This document shows, piece after piece, positions 4,384-50,345 of a DNA stretch of 64,000 nt (within the stretch, counting starts at the first letter, position 1; each line of letters begins with the position of its first letter). A program made the translations under genes and the position numbers. The DNA comes from Patescibacteria group bacterium (GTDB taxonomy: Bacteria; Patescibacteriota; Patescibacteriia; JBAZBY01). The DNA is taken from the NCBI GenBank assembly GCA_041671225.1, contig JBAZBY010000001.1, positions 366,940 to 430,939 of the forward strand. Direction: 5' to 3'. The notes under the pieces were generated by a model. The model was not told where the DNA came from. It did not search any database and saw nothing but the letters and a program-made list of their open reading frames with translations.

Positions 4384-4962
4384 CTATAAAGGAACGACGA
4401 GCGCGATCCGGGCGAAGGAGCTTCCTTCGCGCGTTTTTCCGAGAAAGCTATAGAGCGTTCCTCGGGAAGTGGCGTACGAGAGTACTCCGCCGATCATGCG
4501 GGTGTCTGTACCGGTCTGGAGTATGCCTTCCACCTGCGCGCCGATCCCGACCATCGGGATGATGCCGTTCATCACTACATAGGTGCGGTAGGTGAACGTG
4601 GGTTTGGCGTCCGGGCTGAACGCTGCGAGATTCCAGCTTTGGCAGTCCCACGTGCTGTCCGTATAGATGAGAAATACCTCTGGCAGGACACTCCAAGTCT
4701 GGATTTCACCGCCAACGTAGTTCACCGCGGCCAAGGGCTGCACCAGTAGGTTGCCGAGCGCGAAGGTGGGGCCGATTTCAAGCCCTGCCCAGCCAGCCGT
4801 GGAAGTGATGGCGTTGAGGTTCCATCCATCCTTCTCATGAAACAGCCAGGTGGTGTATTCGCCATCATGTTCCACACGCAGGATGTTGATTTCCTCGGCA
4901 TTGGCGAACGAGGGGGCCACAAGAGAAACGAGAACGAGCAGAAGCGCGAACGTGCGGGTCAT
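4384..4962 (-). CDS. Secreted hypothetical protein (Sec signal peptide)
   Basis: MTRTFALLLVLVSLVAPSFANA|EE fits an AXA cleavage site. The mature part is W/T/G-rich with no family match. Confidence 0.65.
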   Translation of the reverse strand: MTRTFALLLVLVSLVAPSFANAEEINILRVEHDGEYTTWLFHEKDGWNLNAITSTAGWAGLEIGPTFALGNLLVQPLAAVNYVGGEIQTWSVLPEVFLIYTDSTWDCQSWNLAAFSPDAKPTFTYRTYVVMNGIIPMVGIGAQVEGILQTGTDTRMIGGVLSYATSRGTLYSFLGKTREGSSFARIALVVPL

Positions 4963-11004: not shown

Positions 11005-11358
11005 ATGTTGCGGTTGTTGCGCTTTACGACCAACGTGCCCGTTGGGGACATTTGGCTCCCCAACCTCGAGTCTTATGTCGCGAAGCTCGAGGAGTCCCCG
11101 GAGAAGATGGGCACGTTTGCGTGCCATCTCCTGGTGCGGGAGGGAACGAAGGCCACGCTCGAGGAGATAGCTGACCAAACGGTCAGTACGCTCCAGAAGC
11201 GCTTGGAACCCTTCAACGAGAGGATTCAGGTAACGCCGAGCCGGCTGGTGCATGTCAGCCCTGTGGCTGCCGATCTCTGGATGCAGGTCTCCATCCCCCC
11301 TGAGGATGAGGACGCTGCTCCGGCCGACGCCGGCGCCCCGCCCCCGAGCGGCACCTAG
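11005..11358 (+). CDS. Hypothetical protein in a GC-rich patch
   Basis: GGAGG lies 8 nt upstream of the ATG and a strong terminator follows. No family match. A 15-codon uORF with a leaderless-type start precedes it. Confidence 0.5.
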   Translation: MLRLLRFTTNVPVGDIWLPNLESYVAKLEESPEKMGTFACHLLVREGTKATLEEIADQTVSTLQKRLEPFNERIQVTPSRLVHVSPVAADLWMQVSIPPEDEDAAPADAGAPPPSGT

Positions 11359-11475: not shown

Positions 11476-11504
11476 TTGACACCCCACAGGCGAAAATGTA
11501 TACT
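11476..11504 (+). promoter_or_regulatory. rRNA promoter TTGACA-N17-TATACT (with upstream TG)
   Basis: TTGACA at 11476-11481 and TATACT at 11499-11504, about 370 nt upstream of the 16S gene. The leader contains processing-type stems. Confidence 0.6.
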
Positions 11505-11871
11505 ACTCCCTGTTGATAATCTATTAAAAACCTGCGCGTCCGCCCATTTGGGCGAGATACGGCAGGCGGTAAGGAGACCAGTCCACTATCGGGCAAACAT
11601 ACCTCTACCATTCCGTACCTTAATCCCCGCATTGCGGGGGAGAAAAGACAGTAATTCCTCATCAAGTAATCATTGGGACTTACTGTTTTTTCTTCGCTCG
11701 AAAACGCGCAGACACGATCACGCGCGTTGAGCTCGAGAGAGAAATATGTGCATTGAAAAGTGAAATCGTGATAGGAACGACTATTCCGTCGATTCCAGAT
11801 TGTCCATCGTGGTCCGCCTTCGCTTCGCTTTGCGAAGCTATGGCGAGATAGTACGGACAATCGAAACATTA

Positions 11872-13353
<1,482 letters not shown>

Positions 13354-13540
13354 CTAGGGAGTCTCACGTCTCGCAAGAGATTGTGGACGCTTCAGCTCAC
13401 GCGGTGTGAGTGGAGCATCTGACCTAGGAGGTCGGGCGTTGTGCAGTATCATACGATACTGACAACGTTTCAGCATTCATAAATTTTATTTATGAAGGAC
13501 ACGAATCAAATCTATGGTCCGACGGAATAATTGTTTCCTA

Positions 13541-13812
13541 TCACGGTTTTACTCTTCAATGAGATAAAGCCCTCGTAAGAGGGTTTTATTGTTGATCGAA
13601 AGTAACCATAGCGTCCCGCCCCGCAAAGTCCTGAGGTTGCCGAAGGACGACGCGGGGTCACGGTTTTACTTCTCAATGACGATTGTCCTGCGAGAGCAGG
13701 ATTTTTCGTGTATATAATTTGTACCTCGTCTCGCCTCGCCGAAGCCCAAAGGGTGAAGGCGGATTACGGTTTTACTTCTCAATATCGAGAATCCCTCGCA
13801 AGAGGGATTTTT
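13541..13812 (+). repeat. Three tandem ~50-nt terminator modules in the 16S trailer
   Basis: The units begin at 13541, 13658 and 13764. Each has the box (c/t)ACGGTTTTACTYYTCAAT, then a GNRA-tetraloop hairpin (loops GTAA, GAGA, GCAA), then a U-tract. Confidence 0.7.
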
Positions 13813-13848
13813 GTTATACTATGGATGGTCTCATTTCCTGGAGGTACA

Positions 13849-14137
13849 CATGACCATGCTACTGAGCGATATCTGGGCACGTGTCCAGAATACGCTGCTC
13901 CTTGTCGCCATGTATTGCGCGGAATTTCTTCTCGTCGCGCTCATCGCCTTTATCGGCTACGGGTTGACCCGTCACTGGGCGGTCGCGTTTACTGGCGGGG
14001 TCGCCACGTACTGGTTGATCGGATATCTGAGCGATGCACAGGGTCTGTTCCTGAATTCAGTGCCTTGGACGTGGGAGAAGAACACTCGCAGGGCGTGGAT
14101 CTGGCCGTACTACGAGTGCAGAACGTTCTTTCGCTAG
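13849..14137 (+). CDS. Small 2-TM membrane protein (island ORF 1)
   Basis: GGAGG lies 5 nt upstream of the ATG. MTMLLSDIWARVQNTLLLVAMYCAEFLLVALIAFIGYGL... Confidence 0.55.
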
Positions 14138-14182
14138 CGAGCAAGGCTCGCCTCGCTCCCACCGCGCCTCCATTATTTCTTC

Positions 14183-14253
14183 GGGGACGGACAACAATGC
14201 ATCACGCATCTGCTGCCCGTCCCCGCCCACCCTCCCCCGCTGGGGATTTTTTG
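14183..14253 (+). repeat. Structured 3'-UTR / terminator element, copy A
   Basis: GGGGACGGACAACA-ATGCATCACGCAT-CTGCTGCCCGTCCCC followed by a hairpin and T6. It is homologous to 17355-17431. Confidence 0.65.
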
Positions 14254-14336
14254 TTTATCCTTGACACAACACTTTTTTTGTAGTAGCCTTGCACGTTCCT
14301 TCACACCTATAACCCAAACCCGGAAAGGAGTGCGTG

Positions 14337-14972
14337 ATGAACGACGAGGAACGCATAGCGATTAAAACCGCTAGCTATCATGACAATAGGCACGCCTACC
14401 GGGAGTTTCTTCTCGGCAATCGTGCAGAACGCGCCCTTTATGATGGCAAAACGGTTCTGGATCTTGGCTGCGGAATGCCGTGGCGTGCTCGTGCAGTTCG
14501 CGATGCTGGTATTCCTAGCACCGTGATCTCACTCGACCATCGGTGGCTGAATCTCTCTATCGGCCGGCGCCTTCCTGGAAGGGTGCTTGCTGAGGCCTCG
14601 GCGCTCCCATTTTCTGAAGCGACCTTCGATCTCGTATTCAGCCGTGGTGCACCGCCGTGCCTTGTTTGGACCGCTGAGGAATGCGAAGCGCAGTTTGCGG
14701 AACTGCTTCGTGTATTGAAACCGGACGGCTTCGCGATCATTCAGGCTCTGCTTGGCTTCATCGATCGGGAGTGTACCGATCAATGGCTGAGTGAGGGTTC
14801 TTCACGCAAGTCCGGCTATCGCTTCAATGACCCCAACAACCGTCGAGAGATCCTCGAGCGCTCGAATGCCTGGGTGCAGGAGCGGTTCAGTGCGGAGTAT
14901 ATCCGTGTTTTTCAACCGCATGCACCGAGGTGCCTCTCATGGAACTTCGGCGTCTGGATCCTTCGTAAGTAG
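14337..14972 (+). CDS. Class I SAM-dependent methyltransferase
   Basis: Motif I VLDLGCGMP, a post-I acidic residue and LKPDGFAII. GGAAAGGAG RBS upstream. Confidence 0.7.
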   Translation: MNDEERIAIKTASYHDNRHAYREFLLGNRAERALYDGKTVLDLGCGMPWRARAVRDAGIPSTVISLDHRWLNLSIGRRLPGRVLAEASALPFSEATFDLVFSRGAPPCLVWTAEECEAQFAELLRVLKPDGFAIIQALLGFIDRECTDQWLSEGSSRKSGYRFNDPNNRREILERSNAWVQERFSAEYIRVFQPHAPRCLSWNFGVWILRK

Positions 14973-15115
14973 CCCGTACCACCCTGGAGGAGTGGTGCGG
15001 GTTTTCTCATATCCTTTTTTCTTGACAGTACAACCCGAAGCAGATACCGTATCACCATTCGAAGGGTCGCACATTCCACCACGCTCATGCACGCATCACA
15101 GAAGGGAGAAGACAG

Positions 15116-15438
15116 TGCCAGCGAAACGTACGCCTCGCCGAAGCTTTCAGCTCCTTATCTGGAGACGTGAGGATGCTCTTGCCTGGAGGGAGCTTCCCGC
15201 GTCATCGTTGCACAAGGCCGTTGATATTGCACAGGCTCATGCCGCGCGGCACTTCCGGCGTTATCCGTTTATGCCGGTGCGCTGGACAGTTTTTCTTCTC
15301 ACAGGGAAGAAAGCAGCGAAGGATGTTGCCCGCGGGATCGTACGCGCGCCTGTCCGCAAGGGAAGGCCGACGCGCGATTTTTCCGTTCGCGTTGAGACGC
15401 TCATTTACAGCCAGGATATCATGCCCCCGCGGACATGA
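15116..15438 (+). CDS. Hypothetical basic protein (GTG start; island ORF 3)
   Basis: GAAGGGAG lies 7 nt upstream of the GTG. 107 aa, R/K-rich, no family match. Confidence 0.4.
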
Positions 15439-15531
15439 TGTCGCAGCGCGACTCGTTTGCAGGTTCACTGATGCGCGTGCAAGGGGTTCTCGCACGCGTT
15501 CTGCTCGTCGGGATAGACACACAGGAGGTGC

Positions 15532-15807
15532 ATGTTGGTTACTCTGCTGAATCTCCACATGGAAGCTTCTGGGCTTTCATGCCTGCGCTCGATCGAGGTG
15601 GAGGGTCCGCGTACTGTTGCGGAGCTTGCGCTCGCGGCGCAGCGTTCGGTTGAGGAGCGGTTTGGGGATATCCTGACTCCGGGTTCCAGGGTTTCCTGGC
15701 GGATCCACGCACTGGACTGTCCGGACGGCACGTGCCTCGGGTGTGGCATGTCGGACTTCGGCAAGGGCCAGCGCTGCAGGCACACGTTCTACCCCGCGGC
15801 CGCCTGA
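15532..15807 (+). CDS. Small Cys-rich protein (island ORF 4)
   Basis: GGAGG lies 4 nt upstream of the ATG. The C-terminus reads HALDCPDGTCLGCGMSDFGKGQRCRH. Confidence 0.45.
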   Translation: MLVTLLNLHMEASGLSCLRSIEVEGPRTVAELALAAQRSVEERFGDILTPGSRVSWRIHALDCPDGTCLGCGMSDFGKGQRCRHTFYPAAA

Positions 15808-15832
15808 AGGCACGTGGAGGAAGGAGGGGCAC

Positions 15833-16246
15833 ATGAAGAAGCTGTGTGAGGATGGGGAAGTTGTCGTCGAGGTTCGCAGCGAAGGCGGGAAGGGCCATGG
15901 GTTTCTCCTTCTTCTGAGCAAGAGGATGGGTCGTGGCAATTCCTGCAATCTCGCTGAGCATGTCGCGTGGATCATCGACAACATGCCCCGTTGGAAGACG
16001 AAGAGCTACGTGGTATGGACCATGCGCACCTCGATCGGTGGTATTCTCATCAGCGGGAAGCGGCATGTCCGCCGGAGCCCCAAGGGCAAGGTGCGTGTCA
16101 CGCACAACGTCACCTCCCCGGGCGGCGGGAGCAAGCTCGGTCTCACGCCGAAGAAGCCGCTCATTTCTTGCGTCGGCAGGCAGGATCTCATCGATCCAAA
16201 GCTCTTCATCGAGCGGCGCTTGCGCCGACTGAGGGGAAACCGCTAA
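15833..16246 (+). CDS. Hypothetical basic protein (island ORF 5)
   Basis: GGAGG lies 6 nt upstream of the ATG. 137 aa with no family match. Confidence 0.45.
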   Translation: MKKLCEDGEVVVEVRSEGGKGHGFLLLLSKRMGRGNSCNLAEHVAWIIDNMPRWKTKSYVVWTMRTSIGGILISGKRHVRRSPKGKVRVTHNVTSPGGGSKLGLTPKKPLISCVGRQDLIDPKLFIERRLRRLRGNR

Positions 16247-16324
16247 GCGGGAGGGAAAAGTTCTTGGGGAGGTCCGGCATTGCCAGGCCTCCCTCATTTA
16301 TTATATGGGGTTATTTTGTGTATA

Positions 16325-16353
16325 TTGACTTTTTTGACTACATATGGTATACT
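16325..16353 (+). promoter_or_regulatory. Near-consensus promoter TTGACT-N17-TGGTATACT
   Basis: TTGACT at 16325-16330 and an extended -10 TGGTATACT at 16345-16353. It drives the ORF at 16437, which has a GGGAGG RBS. Confidence 0.6.
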
Positions 16354-16436
16354 ATAATGTTCGGCTACAAGAGCGTCTTGTGGGCATGAACGTGGTTTGG
16401 ACCTTGAAAACTCAAAAACATGGGAGGTAAAAGACC

Positions 16437-16817
16437 ATGTTGTACTGGATGCGGTTTTTGTCGCTCTCACTCGCCTTCGGTTCAATCGGTCTCACCGCGT
16501 CGAACATGCCCATCTGGGCGTGTCTCGCCGCCGTTTTGGCACTTACCCTCACCGTGGACCAGTTCTGGTTCGCGGTTCGCAAGGAAGGATTTTTCTTCAC
16601 AATGTTCGGCCCTCGCGAGATGTGGAGACTCATCTGTGAGTCCGGACGCTTCAGCTTGCGCGGCTTCCATCTTCTCTCGGCCACTGCGCATGTTTCTCTC
16701 GTGGTGTGTGTTGCTGGGATCACCATCCTCAACACACTGCCCCCCGCGTTCTCCATGGTCGAACCCCTCGTTCGGCCGTGGGTTGAGAAGTCACCCTTCA
16801 TCGCCGGCCTCTTCTAA
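16437..16817 (+). CDS. Membrane protein (island ORF 6)
   Basis: GGGAGG RBS and three to four TM helices. Confidence 0.55.
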   Translation: MLYWMRFLSLSLAFGSIGLTASNMPIWACLAAVLALTLTVDQFWFAVRKEGFFFTMFGPREMWRLICESGRFSLRGFHLLSATAHVSLVVCVAGITILNTLPPAFSMVEPLVRPWVEKSPFIAGLF

Positions 16818-16841
16818 AGAGCGCTGGGAAAGGAAAGAACG

Positions 16842-17303
16842 ATGAACATCCTGCAGATTCGTGAATTACTCCGTGTGAACCTCACCTACATCACCATCAT
16901 GCGGGCCGAGGTTCGCATGTTCGATTGGCAGGGGATCCTCTCCTGCCTTCTGGGCTGGTTCGCTCTGGTAAAGTGCCAGACTGCGAACGACGCCTGGGGC
17001 CTCCTCGGGGTCGCTGCTTTCCTTCTCATGCTGCGGGCGCTCTTCTCGCTCGCCGAGAAGTTCGACATCCTCGAGTACACCCGCGACCAGACACAGGAGG
17101 TTATCACTAGCCTGAAGGAAGCAGAGGGATTCAAGCCCTCTTTGTCCCTTTGGACGTCCGTACTCCCCTACGAGATGAAGGGGAACATACTCACGAGTAA
17201 GGCGAGACATAACTCCGACCTTGCTTTCTACATCATCTCCGCCTTGGCCACACTCTGGGCCAGCTATGAGGGCATCTCCTGGTTTGTCTGGTACGTGTTT
17301 TGA
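16842..17303 (+). CDS. Membrane protein (island ORF 7)
   Basis: RBS GGAAAGGAAAG. Hydrophobic segments and a W-rich C-terminus. Confidence 0.5.
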   Translation: MNILQIRELLRVNLTYITIMRAEVRMFDWQGILSCLLGWFALVKCQTANDAWGLLGVAAFLLMLRALFSLAEKFDILEYTRDQTQEVITSLKEAEGFKPSLSLWTSVLPYEMKGNILTSKARHNSDLAFYIISALATLWASYEGISWFVWYVF

Positions 17304-17354
17304 GCCATCCCCTCTGAGACTGTGCCGCCATTCGCACCTTCCGCCGCTCTTACG

Positions 17355-17431
17355 AGGGACGGACAACAGCGCATCCTGCGTCTGCTGTCCGTCCCCACTC
17401 ACCTTCCCGTATCACATCGGGAATTTTTTTT
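17355..17431 (+). repeat. Structured 3'-UTR / terminator element, copy B
   Basis: GAGGGACGGACAACA-GCGCATCCTGCGT-CTGCTGTCCGTCCCC followed by a hairpin and T8. The inner stem shows a compensatory T-A to C-G change relative to copy A. Confidence 0.65.
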
Positions 17432-17579
17432 ATAAAAAAGGAGGATCCCATATTCTGACGGATGTAATCCTATTGCTGTGGTTCAAGCGATCAGCGCTTG
17501 CGCCACACGTGGCTTTCTGGTACATTTCCGCTGTTCTGCATCGGAACGATGCCTTTTTCAGTCAGTCAGCAGAATATTT

Positions 17580-17656
17580 GGGCGATTAGCTCAGGTGGTT
17601 AGAGCGCAGCACTGATAATGCTGAGGTCCCAGGTTCGAGTCCTGGATCGCCCACCA
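17580..17656 (+). tRNA. tRNA-Ile (anticodon GAT)
   Basis: Cloverleaf parsed by hand. Anticodon loop CTGATAA and an encoded CCA end. Confidence 0.9.
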
Positions 17657-17850
17657 TCGGTCGATGATGTATAAGACTTTAAGGGGTCCCCGCAAACGGG
17701 GTGCGCAGGGCGAGTAGCTGCTCACGAGTGTAGCGAGTGAGCAGCGTGAAGCGAGCCCGAGCACACGTTTGTGGGGTAGAGCGAGGATTCGCGCGAAAGC
17801 TGAAGTGAGCGAGATTATGAGCTCATGGAAGCTGTAGCGCGAAACGACGC

Positions 17851-17925
17851 GCCGCGGTAGCTCAGTGGTAGAGCGCGGGCCTGAAGAGCCCGGCGTCGAC
17901 AGTTCGATTCTGTCCCGCGGCACCA
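17851..17925 (+). tRNA. tRNA-Phe (anticodon GAA)
   Basis: Acceptor GCCGCGG/CCGCGGC. Anticodon loop CTGAAGA and an encoded CCA end. Confidence 0.85.
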
Positions 17926-45145: not shown

Positions 45146-45670
45146 ATGTCCTGGCGCTGGAGACTCGCTCTCGCTTTTCTTCTTGCCGCGATCGCTGTGG
45201 CATTCGGTATTGCCACGCTTGCCCATGCCGCCACTGTCACCACAACGGCCGAGCAGCTTTCGGAACTCAGGAAGCGCGTTCCGGTTACGAAGTGGGAGAG
45301 GGTTGGGATCATCATCCAGTACGGTGAAAACGAGTACGGGGTCTGGGAGCCCTTCTTGGGGCCCAGCGGCGTACTCATCCTCAAGCGTCAAGGCGGTGAG
45401 TGGTTCACCGCAACCGAACGCGACGCGGAGTTCACCACGTTCATATCCCGGATCGATCGCATCTTCTCCGCCGGCCTGCTGCTTGGCGTGCCGGATCATA
45501 TGTATGCCACGCAGCACTGGTGTGGCAGGGGAGATCAAGACCGCATCCTGCGCAACAAGCAGCGGTTCCCGATTTTCTTCGCCAATCTCCGCGGAGAGTT
45601 CAACATCACTGCGGTGCAGGTGGAACTCCCGGACGGAACCAAGCTCGGCCCGCCGTTTCTGGTGGAGTAA
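45146..45670 (+). CDS. Secreted hypothetical protein (GC-rich)
   Basis: GGAGG RBS. Signal peptide MSWRWRLALAFLLAAIAVAFGIATLAHA. Confidence 0.55.
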   Translation: MSWRWRLALAFLLAAIAVAFGIATLAHAATVTTTAEQLSELRKRVPVTKWERVGIIIQYGENEYGVWEPFLGPSGVLILKRQGGEWFTATERDAEFTTFISRIDRIFSAGLLLGVPDHMYATQHWCGRGDQDRILRNKQRFPIFFANLRGEFNITAVQVELPDGTKLGPPFLVE

Positions 45671-50098: not shown

Positions 50099-50270
50099 TG
50101 GAGCGGGTGATCCCGCTTTGCGGGACGGCCTCTTCTGGTCGCCGCCTGCATGAACTTCTATCATCCTACAATAAAAATCTATACTGGAGCGGGTGATCCC
50201 GCTTTGCGGGACGGCCTCTTCTGGTCGCCGCCTGCATGAACTTCTATCATCCTACAATAAAAATCTATAC
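50099..50270 (-). repeat. Two identical tandem 86-bp repeats, each ending in a tRNA-Gly(GCC) 3'-end mimic
   Basis: The units start at 50099 and 50185. Each carries a 12-nt copy of the tRNA 3' end including CCA (TCACCCGCTCCA) preceded by a T-arm-like hairpin tcccgcaaagcggga. Confidence 0.8.
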
Positions 50271-50345
50271 TGGAGCGGGTGACCGGGTTCGAACCGGCGA
50301 CCTCTTCCTTGGCAAGGAAGCGTTCTACCACTGAACTACACCCGC
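50271..50345 (-). tRNA. tRNA-Gly (anticodon GCC)
   Basis: Reverse complement GCGGGTGTAGTTCAGTGGTAGAACGCTTCCTTGCCAAGGAAG...TTCGAACCCGGTCACCCGCTCCA. Confidence 0.9.

What the first reader, a model, noticed from the sequence alone, without database searches (positions are those of the whole stretch)
13380..17440. GC-rich accessory island of eight small ORFs between the 16S gene and tRNA-Ile
The 16S gene is followed not by a 23S gene but by 4.1 kb of about 60% GC DNA, against about 50% for the flanking genome. This region carries eight same-strand ORFs:
- Three 2-4-TM membrane proteins.
- A class I SAM methyltransferase.
- A 91-aa protein ending in a Cys-rich segment (HALDCPDGTCLGCGMSDFGKGQRC).
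- Two very basic small proteins with no family match.

Nearly all have textbook GGAGG RBSs, and there is a near-consensus internal promoter (TTGACT-N17-TGGTATACT).

The island is delimited by a triple terminator array at the 16S end and by two copies of a structured RNA element. It sits between the 16S gene and the tRNA-Ile and tRNA-Phe genes, whereas rRNA spacers normally carry only tRNA-Ile and tRNA-Ala.

This composition suggests a horizontally acquired module. Candidate functions are a peptide or toxin with modification (methyltransferase) and membrane immunity or export proteins, but the function is unknown.
Basis: partly seen in the sequence, partly recalled or inferred. Interest (0 to 1): 0.72.

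Follow-up and report, generated by a model that had tools for sequence, protein, structure and literature searches.

The report
Ordinary orphan genes beside stand-alone 16S
The stretch after the 16S gene is not a toxin or peptide-modification island but a fast-changing run of seven small, lineage-restricted genes in several separate transcription units, beside a self-contained 16S rRNA gene of a Patescibacteria (CPR) genome, an arrangement already known to be common in that group.

Summary
Most of the described features exist, but two figures are overstated. GC is 55.6%, not 60% (window 51.4%), and 9% of equal-sized windows are as GC-rich. There are seven ORFs, not eight.

The "triple terminator array" is the 3' end of the 16S unit. 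A 38-bp leader/trailer processing stem plus terminator is followed by two shortened duplicates.

The seven ORFs are split by terminators and promoter-like sites into at least four units: ORF1 | methyltransferase | ORF3-4-5 | ORF6-7.

Only one relative was found anywhere (a 3-kb contig, SRR22388171). It keeps ORF1 (79% aa), ORF3 (94%, dN/dS 0.15), ORF5 (46%) and a positional ORF7 counterpart at the same site, with the same GC3-rich composition. It lacks the methyltransferase, the Cys-rich ORF4 and ORF6.

The two pillars of the "modified peptide" idea are therefore dispensable and are not co-transcribed. No RiPP, transporter, phage, defence or mobility family matched.

GC3 of at least 0.70 also marks six other orphan genes in the window. 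It persists in the relative despite saturated synonymous divergence, so it is not evidence of recent transfer.

Unlinked rRNA genes are already known to be common in Patescibacteria. Verdict: ordinary, low interest. The tripled 16S trailer is the only mildly curious feature.

The parts
11476..11504 (+). Promoter-like site of the 16S unit (TTGACA-N17-TATACT)
   Evidence: Consensus scan, 11 of 12 matches. Function is inferred.
11751..11790 (+). 5' half of the 16S processing stem, in the leader
   Evidence: The MFE fold of leader plus trailer pairs it with 13521-13561 over 38 bp. Duplex energy is -86 kcal/mol against -44 +/- 5 for shuffles.
11868..13353 (+). 16S rRNA gene
   Evidence: Rfam SSU_rRNA_bacteria, 1443 bits, full length.
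13521..13590 (+). 3' half of the 16S processing stem, followed by terminator T1 (unit 1 of the 'triple array')
   Evidence: Conserved in L023 at 200-260.
13600..13815 (+). Two shortened duplicates of the trailer. Each has box A (CGTCYCGCCYCG), a hairpin, box B (ACGGTTTTACTTCTCAAT) and its own terminator.
   Evidence: The repeat family is. The motif occurs 3 times here plus its complement in the leader, against 0.06 expected. Both units are present in L023, with compensatory changes in the T2 stem.
13850..14137 (+). ORF1, 95 aa, hydrophobic small protein
   Evidence: Called by public gene callers. It is 79% identical to its counterpart in L023, with dN/dS 0.6. No family match.
14182..14252 (+). 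Hairpin element copy a, followed by an intrinsic terminator
   Evidence: fold z-score -3.2. L023 has a degraded relic at the same place.
14337..14972 (+). ORF2, 211 aa, class I SAM-dependent methyltransferase of unknown substrate. Absent from the relative.
   Evidence: Pfam Methyltransf_11 and Methyltransf_25. Only one weak homologue among 5.8 billion proteins. The block 14118-14971 has no counterpart in L023.
14973..15005 (+). Terminator hairpin after ORF2, followed by TTGACA at 15024
   Evidence: Fold energy -21.1 kcal/mol, z-score -4.1. Conserved in L023.
15115..15438 (+). ORF3, 107 aa, very basic (pI 11.8). The best-conserved gene of the stretch.
   Evidence: It is 94% identical to its counterpart in L023, with dN/dS 0.15 and differences by codon position of 1/5/12. 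No true homologue among 1.84 billion representative proteins.
15532..15807 (+). ORF4, 91 aa, Cys-rich tail. A doubtful gene.
   Evidence: It has a strong ribosome-binding site. Its codon score is negative and ties with the antisense frame. It is absent from L023 and is not annotated by NCBI.
15833..16246 (+). ORF5, 137 aa, very basic (pI 11.1)
   Evidence: It is 46% identical to its counterpart in L023, with a conserved C-terminus and dN/dS about 0.45. A profile search finds only these two proteins.
16267..16353 (+). Terminator-like hairpin, then promoter TTGACT-N17-TGGTATACT
   Evidence: The block 16189-16364 is 81% identical to L023, with identical promoter hexamers.
16437..16817 (+). ORF6, 126 aa, membrane-like. 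Absent from the relative.
16842..17303 (+). ORF7, 153 aa, membrane-like. The relative has a positional counterpart.
   Evidence: The upstream ribosome-binding-site region and the 3' flank resemble those of the L023 126-aa gene. Protein similarity is not significant.
17356..17431 (+). Hairpin element copy b, followed by an intrinsic terminator
   Evidence: fold z-score -5.0.
17580..17925 (+). tRNA-Ile(GAT), a 194-nt highly structured spacer, and tRNA-Phe(GAA)
   Evidence: The spacer folds at -89.3 kcal/mol, z-score -6.85.

Best explanation
This is a stand-alone (unlinked) 16S rRNA transcription unit of a Patescibacteria genome. It has its own promoter, a 38-bp leader/trailer processing stem, and its own terminators, which are tripled.

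After it comes an ordinary but fast-turnover stretch of seven small lineage-restricted genes, and then a separate tRNA-Ile/tRNA-Phe unit.

The genes are not one functional module. Terminators and promoter-like sites divide them into at least four units: ORF1 | methyltransferase | ORF3-(ORF4)-ORF5 | ORF6-ORF7.

- A core of ORF1, ORF3, ORF5 and probably ORF7 predates the split from the only detectable relative.
- The methyltransferase, ORF4 and ORF6 are gene-sized gains or losses, some of them at short purine-rich (Shine-Dalgarno-like) microhomologies.
- The likeliest roles are inferred only. ORF1, ORF6 and ORF7 are small envelope or membrane proteins. ORF3 and ORF5 are small basic, possibly nucleic-acid-binding proteins. 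ORF2 is a dispensable small-molecule or macromolecule methyltransferase.
- The GC3-rich composition is a maintained property of a class of fast-evolving orphan genes in this genome. It is not a mark of recent foreign origin.
For: **The 16S gene is a self-contained unit**
- A promoter-like site lies upstream of the gene.
- The leader at 11751-11790 pairs with the trailer at 13521-13561.
- Terminator-like sites number 18 in 8 kb, against 8.9 +/- 3.3 expected.

**The ORFs fall into separate units**
- Stable terminator hairpins follow ORF1, ORF2, ORF5 and ORF7.
- The promoter before ORF6 is conserved in the relative.

**The relative L023 shares the core at the same site**
- It carries ORF1 (79%), ORF3 (94%, dN/dS 0.15) and ORF5 (46%).
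- It lacks 14118-14971, ORF4 and ORF6.

**The orphan status is real**
- Nothing was found for ORF5 among 5.8 billion proteins.
- Nothing was found for ORF3 among 1.84 billion representative proteins.
- Nothing was found in Pfam, NCBIfam, PHROGs or PADLOC.
- Nothing was found in the viral, phage or plasmid collections.

**Composition is not specific to this stretch**
- 44% of the 70 called genes in the window have no Pfam hit.
- All 11 genes with GC3 of at least 0.70 are Pfam-negative, and six of them lie outside the region.
- The relative's syntenic genes are equally GC3-rich, although dS is saturated.

**The arrangement is already known**
- Unlinked rRNA genes are reported as common in Patescibacteria (bioRxiv 10.1101/705046).
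Against: - Only one relative, represented by short contigs, was available. The direction of each gain or loss and the ancestral state are therefore not resolved.
- Transcription units are predicted from sequence only.
- ORF1 and ORF3 have a much lower synonymous divergence (dS 0.17) than housekeeping genes of the same pair of genomes (0.45 to more than 1.5). This points to recent exchange of this block between lineages, so some horizontal movement within the lineage is real.
- The region's orphan genes are on average more GC3-rich than the other orphans in the window (0.73 against 0.59, p = 0.009).
- The function of every protein except the methyltransferase fold is unknown. Structure models were of low confidence (pLDDT 58-60) and gave no fold match.
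Confidence: 0.72

Rival explanations
1. The stretch is a horizontally acquired module that makes a Cys-rich peptide or toxin (ORF4), modifies it with the methyltransferase (ORF2), and exports it or resists it with the membrane proteins.
For: - ORF4 has a strong ribosome-binding site and a C-x5-C-x2-C tail.
- The weak PDB sequence hits of ORF2 include two RiPP methyltransferases, CypM (E 1.8e-4) and LahSB (E 8.9e-4).
- Three small membrane proteins lie nearby.
Against: - The PDB hits are generic class I fold similarity. They sit alongside YtkW, a UbiE-like protein and the rRNA methyltransferase RlmA at similar E-values.
- ORF2 and ORF4 are in different predicted units, separated by a terminator of -21 kcal/mol.
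- Both are absent from the relative, which keeps ORF1, ORF3 and ORF5.
- ORF4 has a negative codon score and is not annotated by NCBI.
- No cyclase, dehydratase, YcaO, radical-SAM enzyme, protease or ABC exporter is present.
- A 91-aa product with no recognisable leader is atypical for this kind of system.
Confidence: 0.04
2. ORF2 to ORF7 are the remnant of an integrated mobile element. Its ends would be the two 53-nt hairpin repeats at 14184 and 17356, next to a tRNA gene.
For: - The two hairpin elements are direct repeats, 83% identical and 3172 nt apart. They occur only twice in 64 kb, against 0.07 expected.
- The block lies next to tRNA genes.
- Gene content varies between relatives.
- The ORF3 block has an unusually low dS.
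Against: - No integrase, transposase, relaxase or phage gene is present.
- The repeats are unrelated to the tRNA sequences, and the block lies 5' of the tRNA-Ile gene rather than at its 3' end.
- The relative shares the inner genes ORF3 and ORF5 and has a relic of hairpin copy a at the same place. Any such element would therefore predate the split.
- Each hairpin sits directly before a terminator and downstream of a membrane-protein gene. That placement fits a 3'-UTR or terminator element.
Confidence: 0.07
3. The genes are functionally tied to the ribosome. ORF3 and ORF5 would be novel basic pre-rRNA-binding or ribosome-associated proteins, and ORF2 an rRNA methyltransferase, placed beside the 16S gene for co-regulation.
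For: - ORF3 and ORF5 have pI 11.8 and 11.1.
- ORF3 is under purifying selection (dN/dS 0.15) and is more conserved than several housekeeping genes.
- RlmA is among the weak PDB hits of ORF2.
- The genes lie next to the 16S gene in both lineages.
Against: - No similarity to any ribosomal or RNA-binding family was found.
- ORF2 is absent from the relative.
- The genes are separated from the 16S gene by three terminators.
- A high pI is common among small orphan proteins.
Confidence: 0.08
4. Several of the ORFs are not genes at all. They would be chance open frames in GC-rich DNA.
For: - ORF4 has a negative codon score that ties with the antisense frame. It is absent from the relative and is not called by NCBI.
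- A 252-aa antisense shadow ORF at 15539-16297 shows how easily long frames arise here.
- ORF1 differences are spread evenly over codon positions, at 11/10/8.
Against: - Six of the seven ORFs score best, or tie for best, in their own frame.
- ORF1, ORF3 and ORF5 stay open, with the same length, start and ribosome-binding site, in a relative whose synonymous sites are otherwise saturated.
- ORF2 carries a bona fide Pfam domain.
Confidence: 0.09

Closest known systems
Unlinked (split) rRNA gene arrangement, as surveyed by Brewer et al. [quoted passage not shown]
   Same: - The 16S gene has no 23S gene within 1500 bp. In fact there is none within 50 kb downstream or 11.8 kb upstream.
- The organism is a Patescibacteria MAG.
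- Protein-coding genes follow the 16S gene.
   Different: - The 16S 3' trailer, meaning the processing-stem half plus terminator, is present in three tandem versions. All three are conserved in a relative.
- I found no description of such a tripled trailer, but I did not search the literature for it specifically.
Bacterial 16S leader/spacer processing stem (the RNase III substrate of E. coli rrn operons; from general knowledge)
   Same: A long helix of 38 bp forms between a leader segment about 80-115 nt upstream of the 16S gene and a segment about 170-210 nt downstream of it.
   Different: - The 3' partner is followed at once by a terminator rather than by spacer tRNAs and a 23S gene.
- Two extra partial 3' partners follow it.
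- Cleavage was not tested.
RiPP clusters with a class I methyltransferase (linaridin CypM; lanthipeptide LahSB)
   Same: There is weak sequence similarity of ORF2 to CypM and LahSB (E 1.8e-4 and 8.9e-4), and a small Cys-containing ORF lies nearby.
   Different: - No core modifying enzyme, protease or exporter is present.
- The methyltransferase and the small ORF are in different predicted units, and both are dispensable in the relative.
- ORF2 is equally similar to unrelated methyltransferases.
Flexible genomic islets of strain-specific orphan genes in small bacterial genomes (general concept)
   Same: - Genes are gained and lost one at a time between relatives.
- Divergence is a mosaic, with blocks at dS 0.17 next to blocks at dS above 1.
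- There are no homologues outside the lineage.
   Different: - No mobility genes are present.
- The composition is shared with other orphan genes of the same genome and is stable over long divergence.

Membership tests
Unlinked rRNA gene arrangement | More than 1500 bp between the 16S and 23S genes (the criterion of bioRxiv 10.1101/705046) | tested here: met
   Rfam finds only the SSU gene in the 64 kb. No LSU or 5S gene is present. The criterion is quoted.
Unlinked rRNA gene arrangement | The 16S gene is an autonomous transcription unit with its own promoter, flanking processing helix and terminator | tested here: met
   All three features are predicted from sequence only: promoter at 11476-11504, 38-bp leader/trailer helix, and terminators T1-T3. 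No transcript data were available.
Class I SAM-dependent methyltransferase (ORF2) | A match to a Rossmann-fold methyltransferase domain above the curated threshold, including the glycine-rich SAM motif | tested here: met
   Methyltransf_11 scores 39.9 bits against a cut-off of 21.2, and Methyltransf_25 scores 36.6 against 27. The motif VLDLGCG is visible in the sequence.
Class I SAM-dependent methyltransferase (ORF2) | Assignment to a subfamily with a known substrate | tested here: not met
   Every NCBIfam equivalog scores far below its cut-off; for example, BioC scores 35.9 against 342. The nearest protein in 5.8 billion is 41% identical over 44% of the length.
RiPP biosynthetic gene cluster | A core post-translational modification enzyme (LanB/C/M, YcaO, radical SAM, linaridin LinL-type and similar) | tested here: not met
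   No such Pfam or NCBIfam hit was found for any of the seven ORFs at E up to 1.
RiPP biosynthetic gene cluster | A precursor peptide gene co-transcribed with, and co-conserved with, its tailoring enzyme | tested here: not met
   ORF2 and ORF4 are separated by a terminator and by ORF3. Both are missing from the relative. ORF4 is weakly supported as a gene.
RiPP biosynthetic gene cluster | A dedicated exporter, protease or immunity protein of a known family | tested here: not met
   ORF1, ORF6 and ORF7 have no family match.
Horizontally acquired genomic island | Composition atypical for the host genome | tested here: inconclusive
   - GC is 55.6% against 51.4% for the window, and 9% of equal-length windows are as high.
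- Five ORFs have GC3 of 0.74-0.78, above all Pfam-positive genes. Six orphan genes elsewhere in the window do too.
- The trait is kept in the relative although dS is saturated.
Horizontally acquired genomic island | Mobility genes (integrase, transposase, relaxase) | tested here: not met
   None was found in Pfam, NCBIfam or PHROGs.
Horizontally acquired genomic island | Absent from the same site in close relatives | tested here: not met
   ORF1, ORF3, ORF5 and an ORF7 counterpart are at the same site in L023. Only ORF2, ORF4 and ORF6 are absent there.
Horizontally acquired genomic island | Homologues in other lineages, phages or plasmids that could be donors | tested here: not met
   No homologues were found.
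Anti-phage defence or toxin-antitoxin system | A match to a known defence or toxin-antitoxin protein family | tested here: not met
   The only PADLOC hit is a generic methyltransferase-domain match of ORF2 to mad2 (E 2e-9). Nothing was found for the other ORFs.

The most novel reading that the evidence does not exclude
The tripled 16S 3' trailer is functional rather than a neutral duplication. There is one full and two condensed copies. Each carries sequences complementary to two parts of the 16S leader, and each has its own terminator. All three are kept in two lineages whose synonymous sites are otherwise saturated. The copies could act as fail-safe or alternative partners of the leader that control 16S maturation in an organism with unlinked rRNA genes. 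The adjacent conserved, very basic ORF3 and ORF5 could be new lineage-specific pre-rRNA or ribosome-associated proteins.
Probability: 0.07. Interest if true: 0.5.

Novelty: new member of a known kind. Interest (0 to 1): 0.17.

Why it matters
It matters little as posed. The stretch is another example of two known things: the unlinked rRNA arrangement in Patescibacteria, and the large, fast-evolving orphan gene fraction of CPR genomes.

Three by-products have modest value:
- **A caution about composition.** A GC3-rich class of orphan genes is stably maintained over long divergence, so composition alone is a poor indicator of horizontal transfer in such genomes.
- **A mosaic divergence pattern.** dS is 0.17 next to the 16S gene, against 0.45 to more than 1.5 elsewhere. 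This suggests recombination around the conserved rRNA gene.
- **A conserved tripled 16S trailer.** It could inform how stand-alone 16S transcripts are terminated and processed.

Tried and rejected
- **Concatenated orphan search.** A protein search with all six orphan proteins joined into one query returned nothing, not even the proteins themselves. This was a tool artefact and wasted one search.
- **Search for related genomes.** A genome-contig scan with the neighbouring endonuclease III, meant to find related genomes, returned only distant phyla at no more than 54% identity. It gave no synteny information.
- **Metagenome scans.** Two metagenome-contig scans, with ORF1 and ORF3 alignments, found no relative.
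- **A false ORF3 homologue.** The exhaustive search gave one weak hit, P0013. It is a tandem-repeat artefact whose E-value is inflated by five identical stretches, so I rejected it.
- **Other libraries and collections.** PHROGs, PADLOC, viral contigs, GenBank phages and plasmids gave nothing beyond generic methyltransferase similarity.
- **Known RNA families.** Rfam at a permissive threshold found no family for the trailer repeats, the hairpin element or the inter-tRNA spacer.
- **Paralogues.** None of the seven ORFs has a paralogue in the window.
- **A third relative.** The 90% clusters of the relative's proteins are all singletons, so no third relative was found.
- **ORF7 and the relative's 126-aa protein.** I considered them orthologues. 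Sequence similarity is not significant, so I treat them only as positional counterparts.

Full report
**1. What is there**

The window comes from a Patescibacteria (CPR) metagenome-assembled genome. The proteins of the region are NCBI MFA6511871-76, labelled "Patescibacteria group bacterium", on a 1.03-Mb contig.

- Rfam finds a full-length 16S gene at 11868-13353 and no 23S or 5S gene in the 64 kb.
- tRNA-Ile(GAT) is at 17580 and tRNA-Phe(GAA) at 17851, on the same strand.
- GC of 13380-17440 is 55.6%. The window is 51.4% and the rest of the window 51.1%. Nine per cent of equal-length windows are at least as GC-rich, and the richest starts at 19500. "About 60%" holds only for 15250-16250.

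Seven same-strand ORFs are present, not eight, and public gene callers predict the same seven:

| ORF | Coordinates | Length (aa) |
|---|---|---|
| ORF1 | 13850-14137 | 95 |
| ORF2 | 14337-14972 | 211 |
| ORF3 | 15115-15438 (GTG start) | 107 |
| ORF4 | 15532-15807 | 91 |
| ORF5 | 15833-16246 | 137 |
| ORF6 | 16437-16817 | 126 |
| ORF7 | 16842-17303 | 153 |

- NCBI's annotation skips ORF4.
- ORF2 is a class I SAM methyltransferase (Methyltransf_11, E 6.7e-10). It cannot be assigned to any subfamily with a known substrate.
- The other six ORFs match nothing in Pfam or NCBIfam.
- ORF3 has pI 11.8 and ORF5 pI 11.1. ORF1, ORF6 and ORF7 have TM-like hydrophobic segments.

**2. The "triple terminator array" is the 3' end of the 16S unit**

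The repeated motif ACGGTTTTACTTCTCAAT occurs three times after the 16S gene, and its complement occurs once in the 16S leader at 11752-11769. Only 0.06 matches are expected by chance.

- Folding the leader with the trailer pairs 11751-11790 with 13521-13561 over 38 bp. The duplex energy is -86 kcal/mol against -44 +/- 5 for shuffles.
- This is the classic leader/trailer processing helix that flanks a 16S gene. The function is inferred from general knowledge of rrn operons; cleavage was not tested.
- The helix is followed directly by terminator T1.
- A near-consensus promoter, TTGACA-N17-TATACT, lies at 11476-11504.
- Units 2 and 3 (13600-13815) are condensed copies of the trailer, each with its own terminator.

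The 16S gene is therefore a self-contained transcription unit. Unlinked rRNA genes of this kind are reported to be common in Patescibacteria (bioRxiv 10.1101/705046).

**3. Anatomy of the ORF stretch**

- Stable terminator hairpins with U-tracts follow ORF1 (14233-14252, preceded by the 53-nt hairpin element at 14182-14225).
- They also follow ORF2 (14973-15005, -21.1 kcal/mol, z-score -4.1).
- They also follow ORF5 (16267-16293).
- They also follow ORF7 (17404-17431, preceded by the second hairpin element).
- TTGACA boxes follow the first two of these terminators.
- The promoter TTGACT-N17-TGGTATACT precedes ORF6.

The stretch is therefore at least four predicted units: ORF1 | ORF2 | ORF3-4-5 | ORF6-7. 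It is not one operon. These boundaries are predictions from sequence.

**4. Comparative evidence**

Sequence searches gave almost nothing outside the lineage.

- ORF2 has one weak hit among 5.8 billion proteins.
- The ORF5 profile finds only itself and one relative.
- ORF3, searched exhaustively against 1.84 billion representative proteins, finds only that same relative plus a spurious tandem-repeat protein.

The relative is a 3061-bp contig from SRR22388171 (L023). Two more contigs of the same organism, L024 and L025, cover the neighbouring genes.

L023 begins at the 16S 3' end and carries all three trailer units. The T2 stem shows two compensatory pair changes. Box B of unit 3 is identical in the two genomes, whereas unit 2 of L023 is degraded. 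The shared genes compare as follows:

| Window feature | State in L023 |
|---|---|
| ORF1 | 79% aa identity, dN/dS about 0.6 |
| Terminator, TTGACA and ORF3 block | About 90-94% nt identity; ORF3 94% aa, dN/dS 0.15, differences by codon position 1/5/12 |
| ORF5 | 46% aa identity, conserved C-terminus |
| Promoter before ORF6 | Same hexamers and spacing |
| ORF7 | A 126-aa membrane gene in the same position; its flanks are similar but protein similarity is not significant |

- Missing from L023 are the methyltransferase cassette 14118-14971, ORF4 and ORF6.
- The ORF4 difference is bounded by AGG/GGAGG purine microhomology at the two ribosome-binding sites.
- L023 has an extra 133-aa membrane gene flanked by an 18-nt direct repeat.
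- Its tRNA-Phe gene is in the opposite orientation, with no tRNA-Ile gene in between.

**5. Composition revisited**

Seventy genes are called between 4.3 and 64 kb, and 44% of them lack any Pfam hit.

- Outside the region, Pfam-positive genes have GC3 of 0.534 +/- 0.068, with a maximum of 0.68.
- Every gene with GC3 of at least 0.70 is an orphan. These are ORF1, ORF4, ORF5, ORF6 and ORF7, plus 4384-4962, 11005-11358, three genes in 19599-21971, and 45146-45670.
- ORF2 (0.58) and ORF3 (0.60) look like ordinary genes of this genome.
- The relative's counterparts are equally GC3-rich, at 0.64-0.85.
- Synonymous divergence between the two genomes is saturated for these genes: ORF5 has dS 1.1 and the 467-aa gene has dS 1.5.

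A foreign composition would not survive complete turnover of synonymous sites. The high GC3 is therefore a maintained property of this gene class and not evidence of recent acquisition; this is an inference. The cause is unknown. One possibility is GC-biased gene conversion in recombination-prone segments.

There is one real hint of exchange. ORF1 and ORF3 have dS 0.17, whereas housekeeping genes of the same genome pair have 0.45-0.61 (DUF5654, NUDIX) up to saturated values. The 16S-proximal block was therefore shared more recently between the lineages, or it is constrained at the nucleotide level.

**6.

- ORF2 and ORF4 lie in different predicted units and are both dispensable in the relative.
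- ORF4 has a negative codon score that ties with the antisense frame.
- No RiPP core enzyme, protease, exporter, defence or phage family matched.
- Nothing was found in viral contigs, GenBank phages or plasmids.
- The weak PDB sequence hits of ORF2 to CypM and LahSB sit among equally weak hits to YtkW, a UbiE-like protein and RlmA. They reflect the shared fold only.
- Structure models of ORF3 and ORF5 were of low confidence and matched no fold.

**7. Verdict**

This is a stand-alone 16S gene followed by ordinary, rapidly turning-over orphan genes of a CPR genome. The core of the stretch is ancestral to the two known lineages, and three genes are lineage-specific gains or losses.

It is not a demonstrable horizontally acquired module, not an rRNA-spacer insertion in any functional sense, and not a peptide-modification cluster.

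The interest score is low. The residual curiosity is the conserved tripled 16S trailer, together with the two conserved basic orphan proteins beside it.

Noticed in passing
window 13354-13815 with leader 11735-11860; L023 1-480: The 16S 3' trailer exists in three tandem versions. Unit 1 forms a 38-bp helix with the leader. Units 2 and 3 are condensed copies that keep two boxes complementary to the leader (CGTCYCGCC to 11841-11847, and ACGGTTTTACTTCTCAAT to 11752-11769), plus their own terminators. All three units are kept in the relative, with compensatory changes in one terminator stem. Whether units 2 and 3 are functional or neutral duplicates is unexplained.
   Followed up: partly
window 17657-17850: The 194-nt spacer between tRNA-Ile and tRNA-Phe folds into two long hairpins (-89.3 kcal/mol, z-score -6.85 against shuffles). 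It matches no Rfam family.
   Followed up: partly
window 14184-14236 and 17356-17408: A 53-nt imperfect long hairpin is present in two copies, 83% identical. Each lies just downstream of a small membrane-protein gene and just upstream of an intrinsic terminator. These are the only two copies in the 64 kb, and the relative has a degraded relic of the first. It may be a 3'-UTR or REP-like element.
   Followed up: partly
window 4384-4962, 11005-11358, 19599-21971, 45146-45670: Six further orphan genes have GC3 of at least 0.70, a value that no Pfam-matched gene in the window reaches. The three at 19599-21971 have syntenic counterparts of similar size in the relative. Those counterparts show only 28% or undetectable protein identity, yet the same high GC3.
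   Followed up: partly
window 13491-15525 compared with L023: Synonymous divergence of ORF1 and ORF3 (dS 0.17) is at least three-fold lower than that of housekeeping genes of the same genome pair (0.45 to more than 1.5). The non-coding DNA around ORF3 is also about 92% identical. This suggests recent recombination next to the 16S gene, or nucleotide-level constraint.
   Followed up: partly
window 50099-50307: There is a perfect 86-nt tandem repeat, with 2.1 copies here and one more copy in the ENA assembly of the same genome. The unit starts with the reverse complement of the tRNA-Gly(GCC) 3' end, and the array abuts that tRNA gene (50271-50345, minus strand). It may be an attachment-site-like duplication or an assembly-variable array.
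   Followed up: no
window 15539-16297, minus strand: A 252-aa antisense open frame spans ORF4 and ORF5. Its codon score is negative, its GC3 is lower than its GC1, and it has no family hit. It is a shadow ORF of the GC3-rich sense genes and not a gene.
   Followed up: yes
L023 2424-2441 and 2890-2907: In the relative, an extra 133-aa membrane gene is bracketed by an 18-nt direct repeat (TGATCTTTACCCCTGTGC) that starts at the stop codons of two successive genes. This is consistent with insertion or duplication of a single-gene cassette.
   Followed up: no
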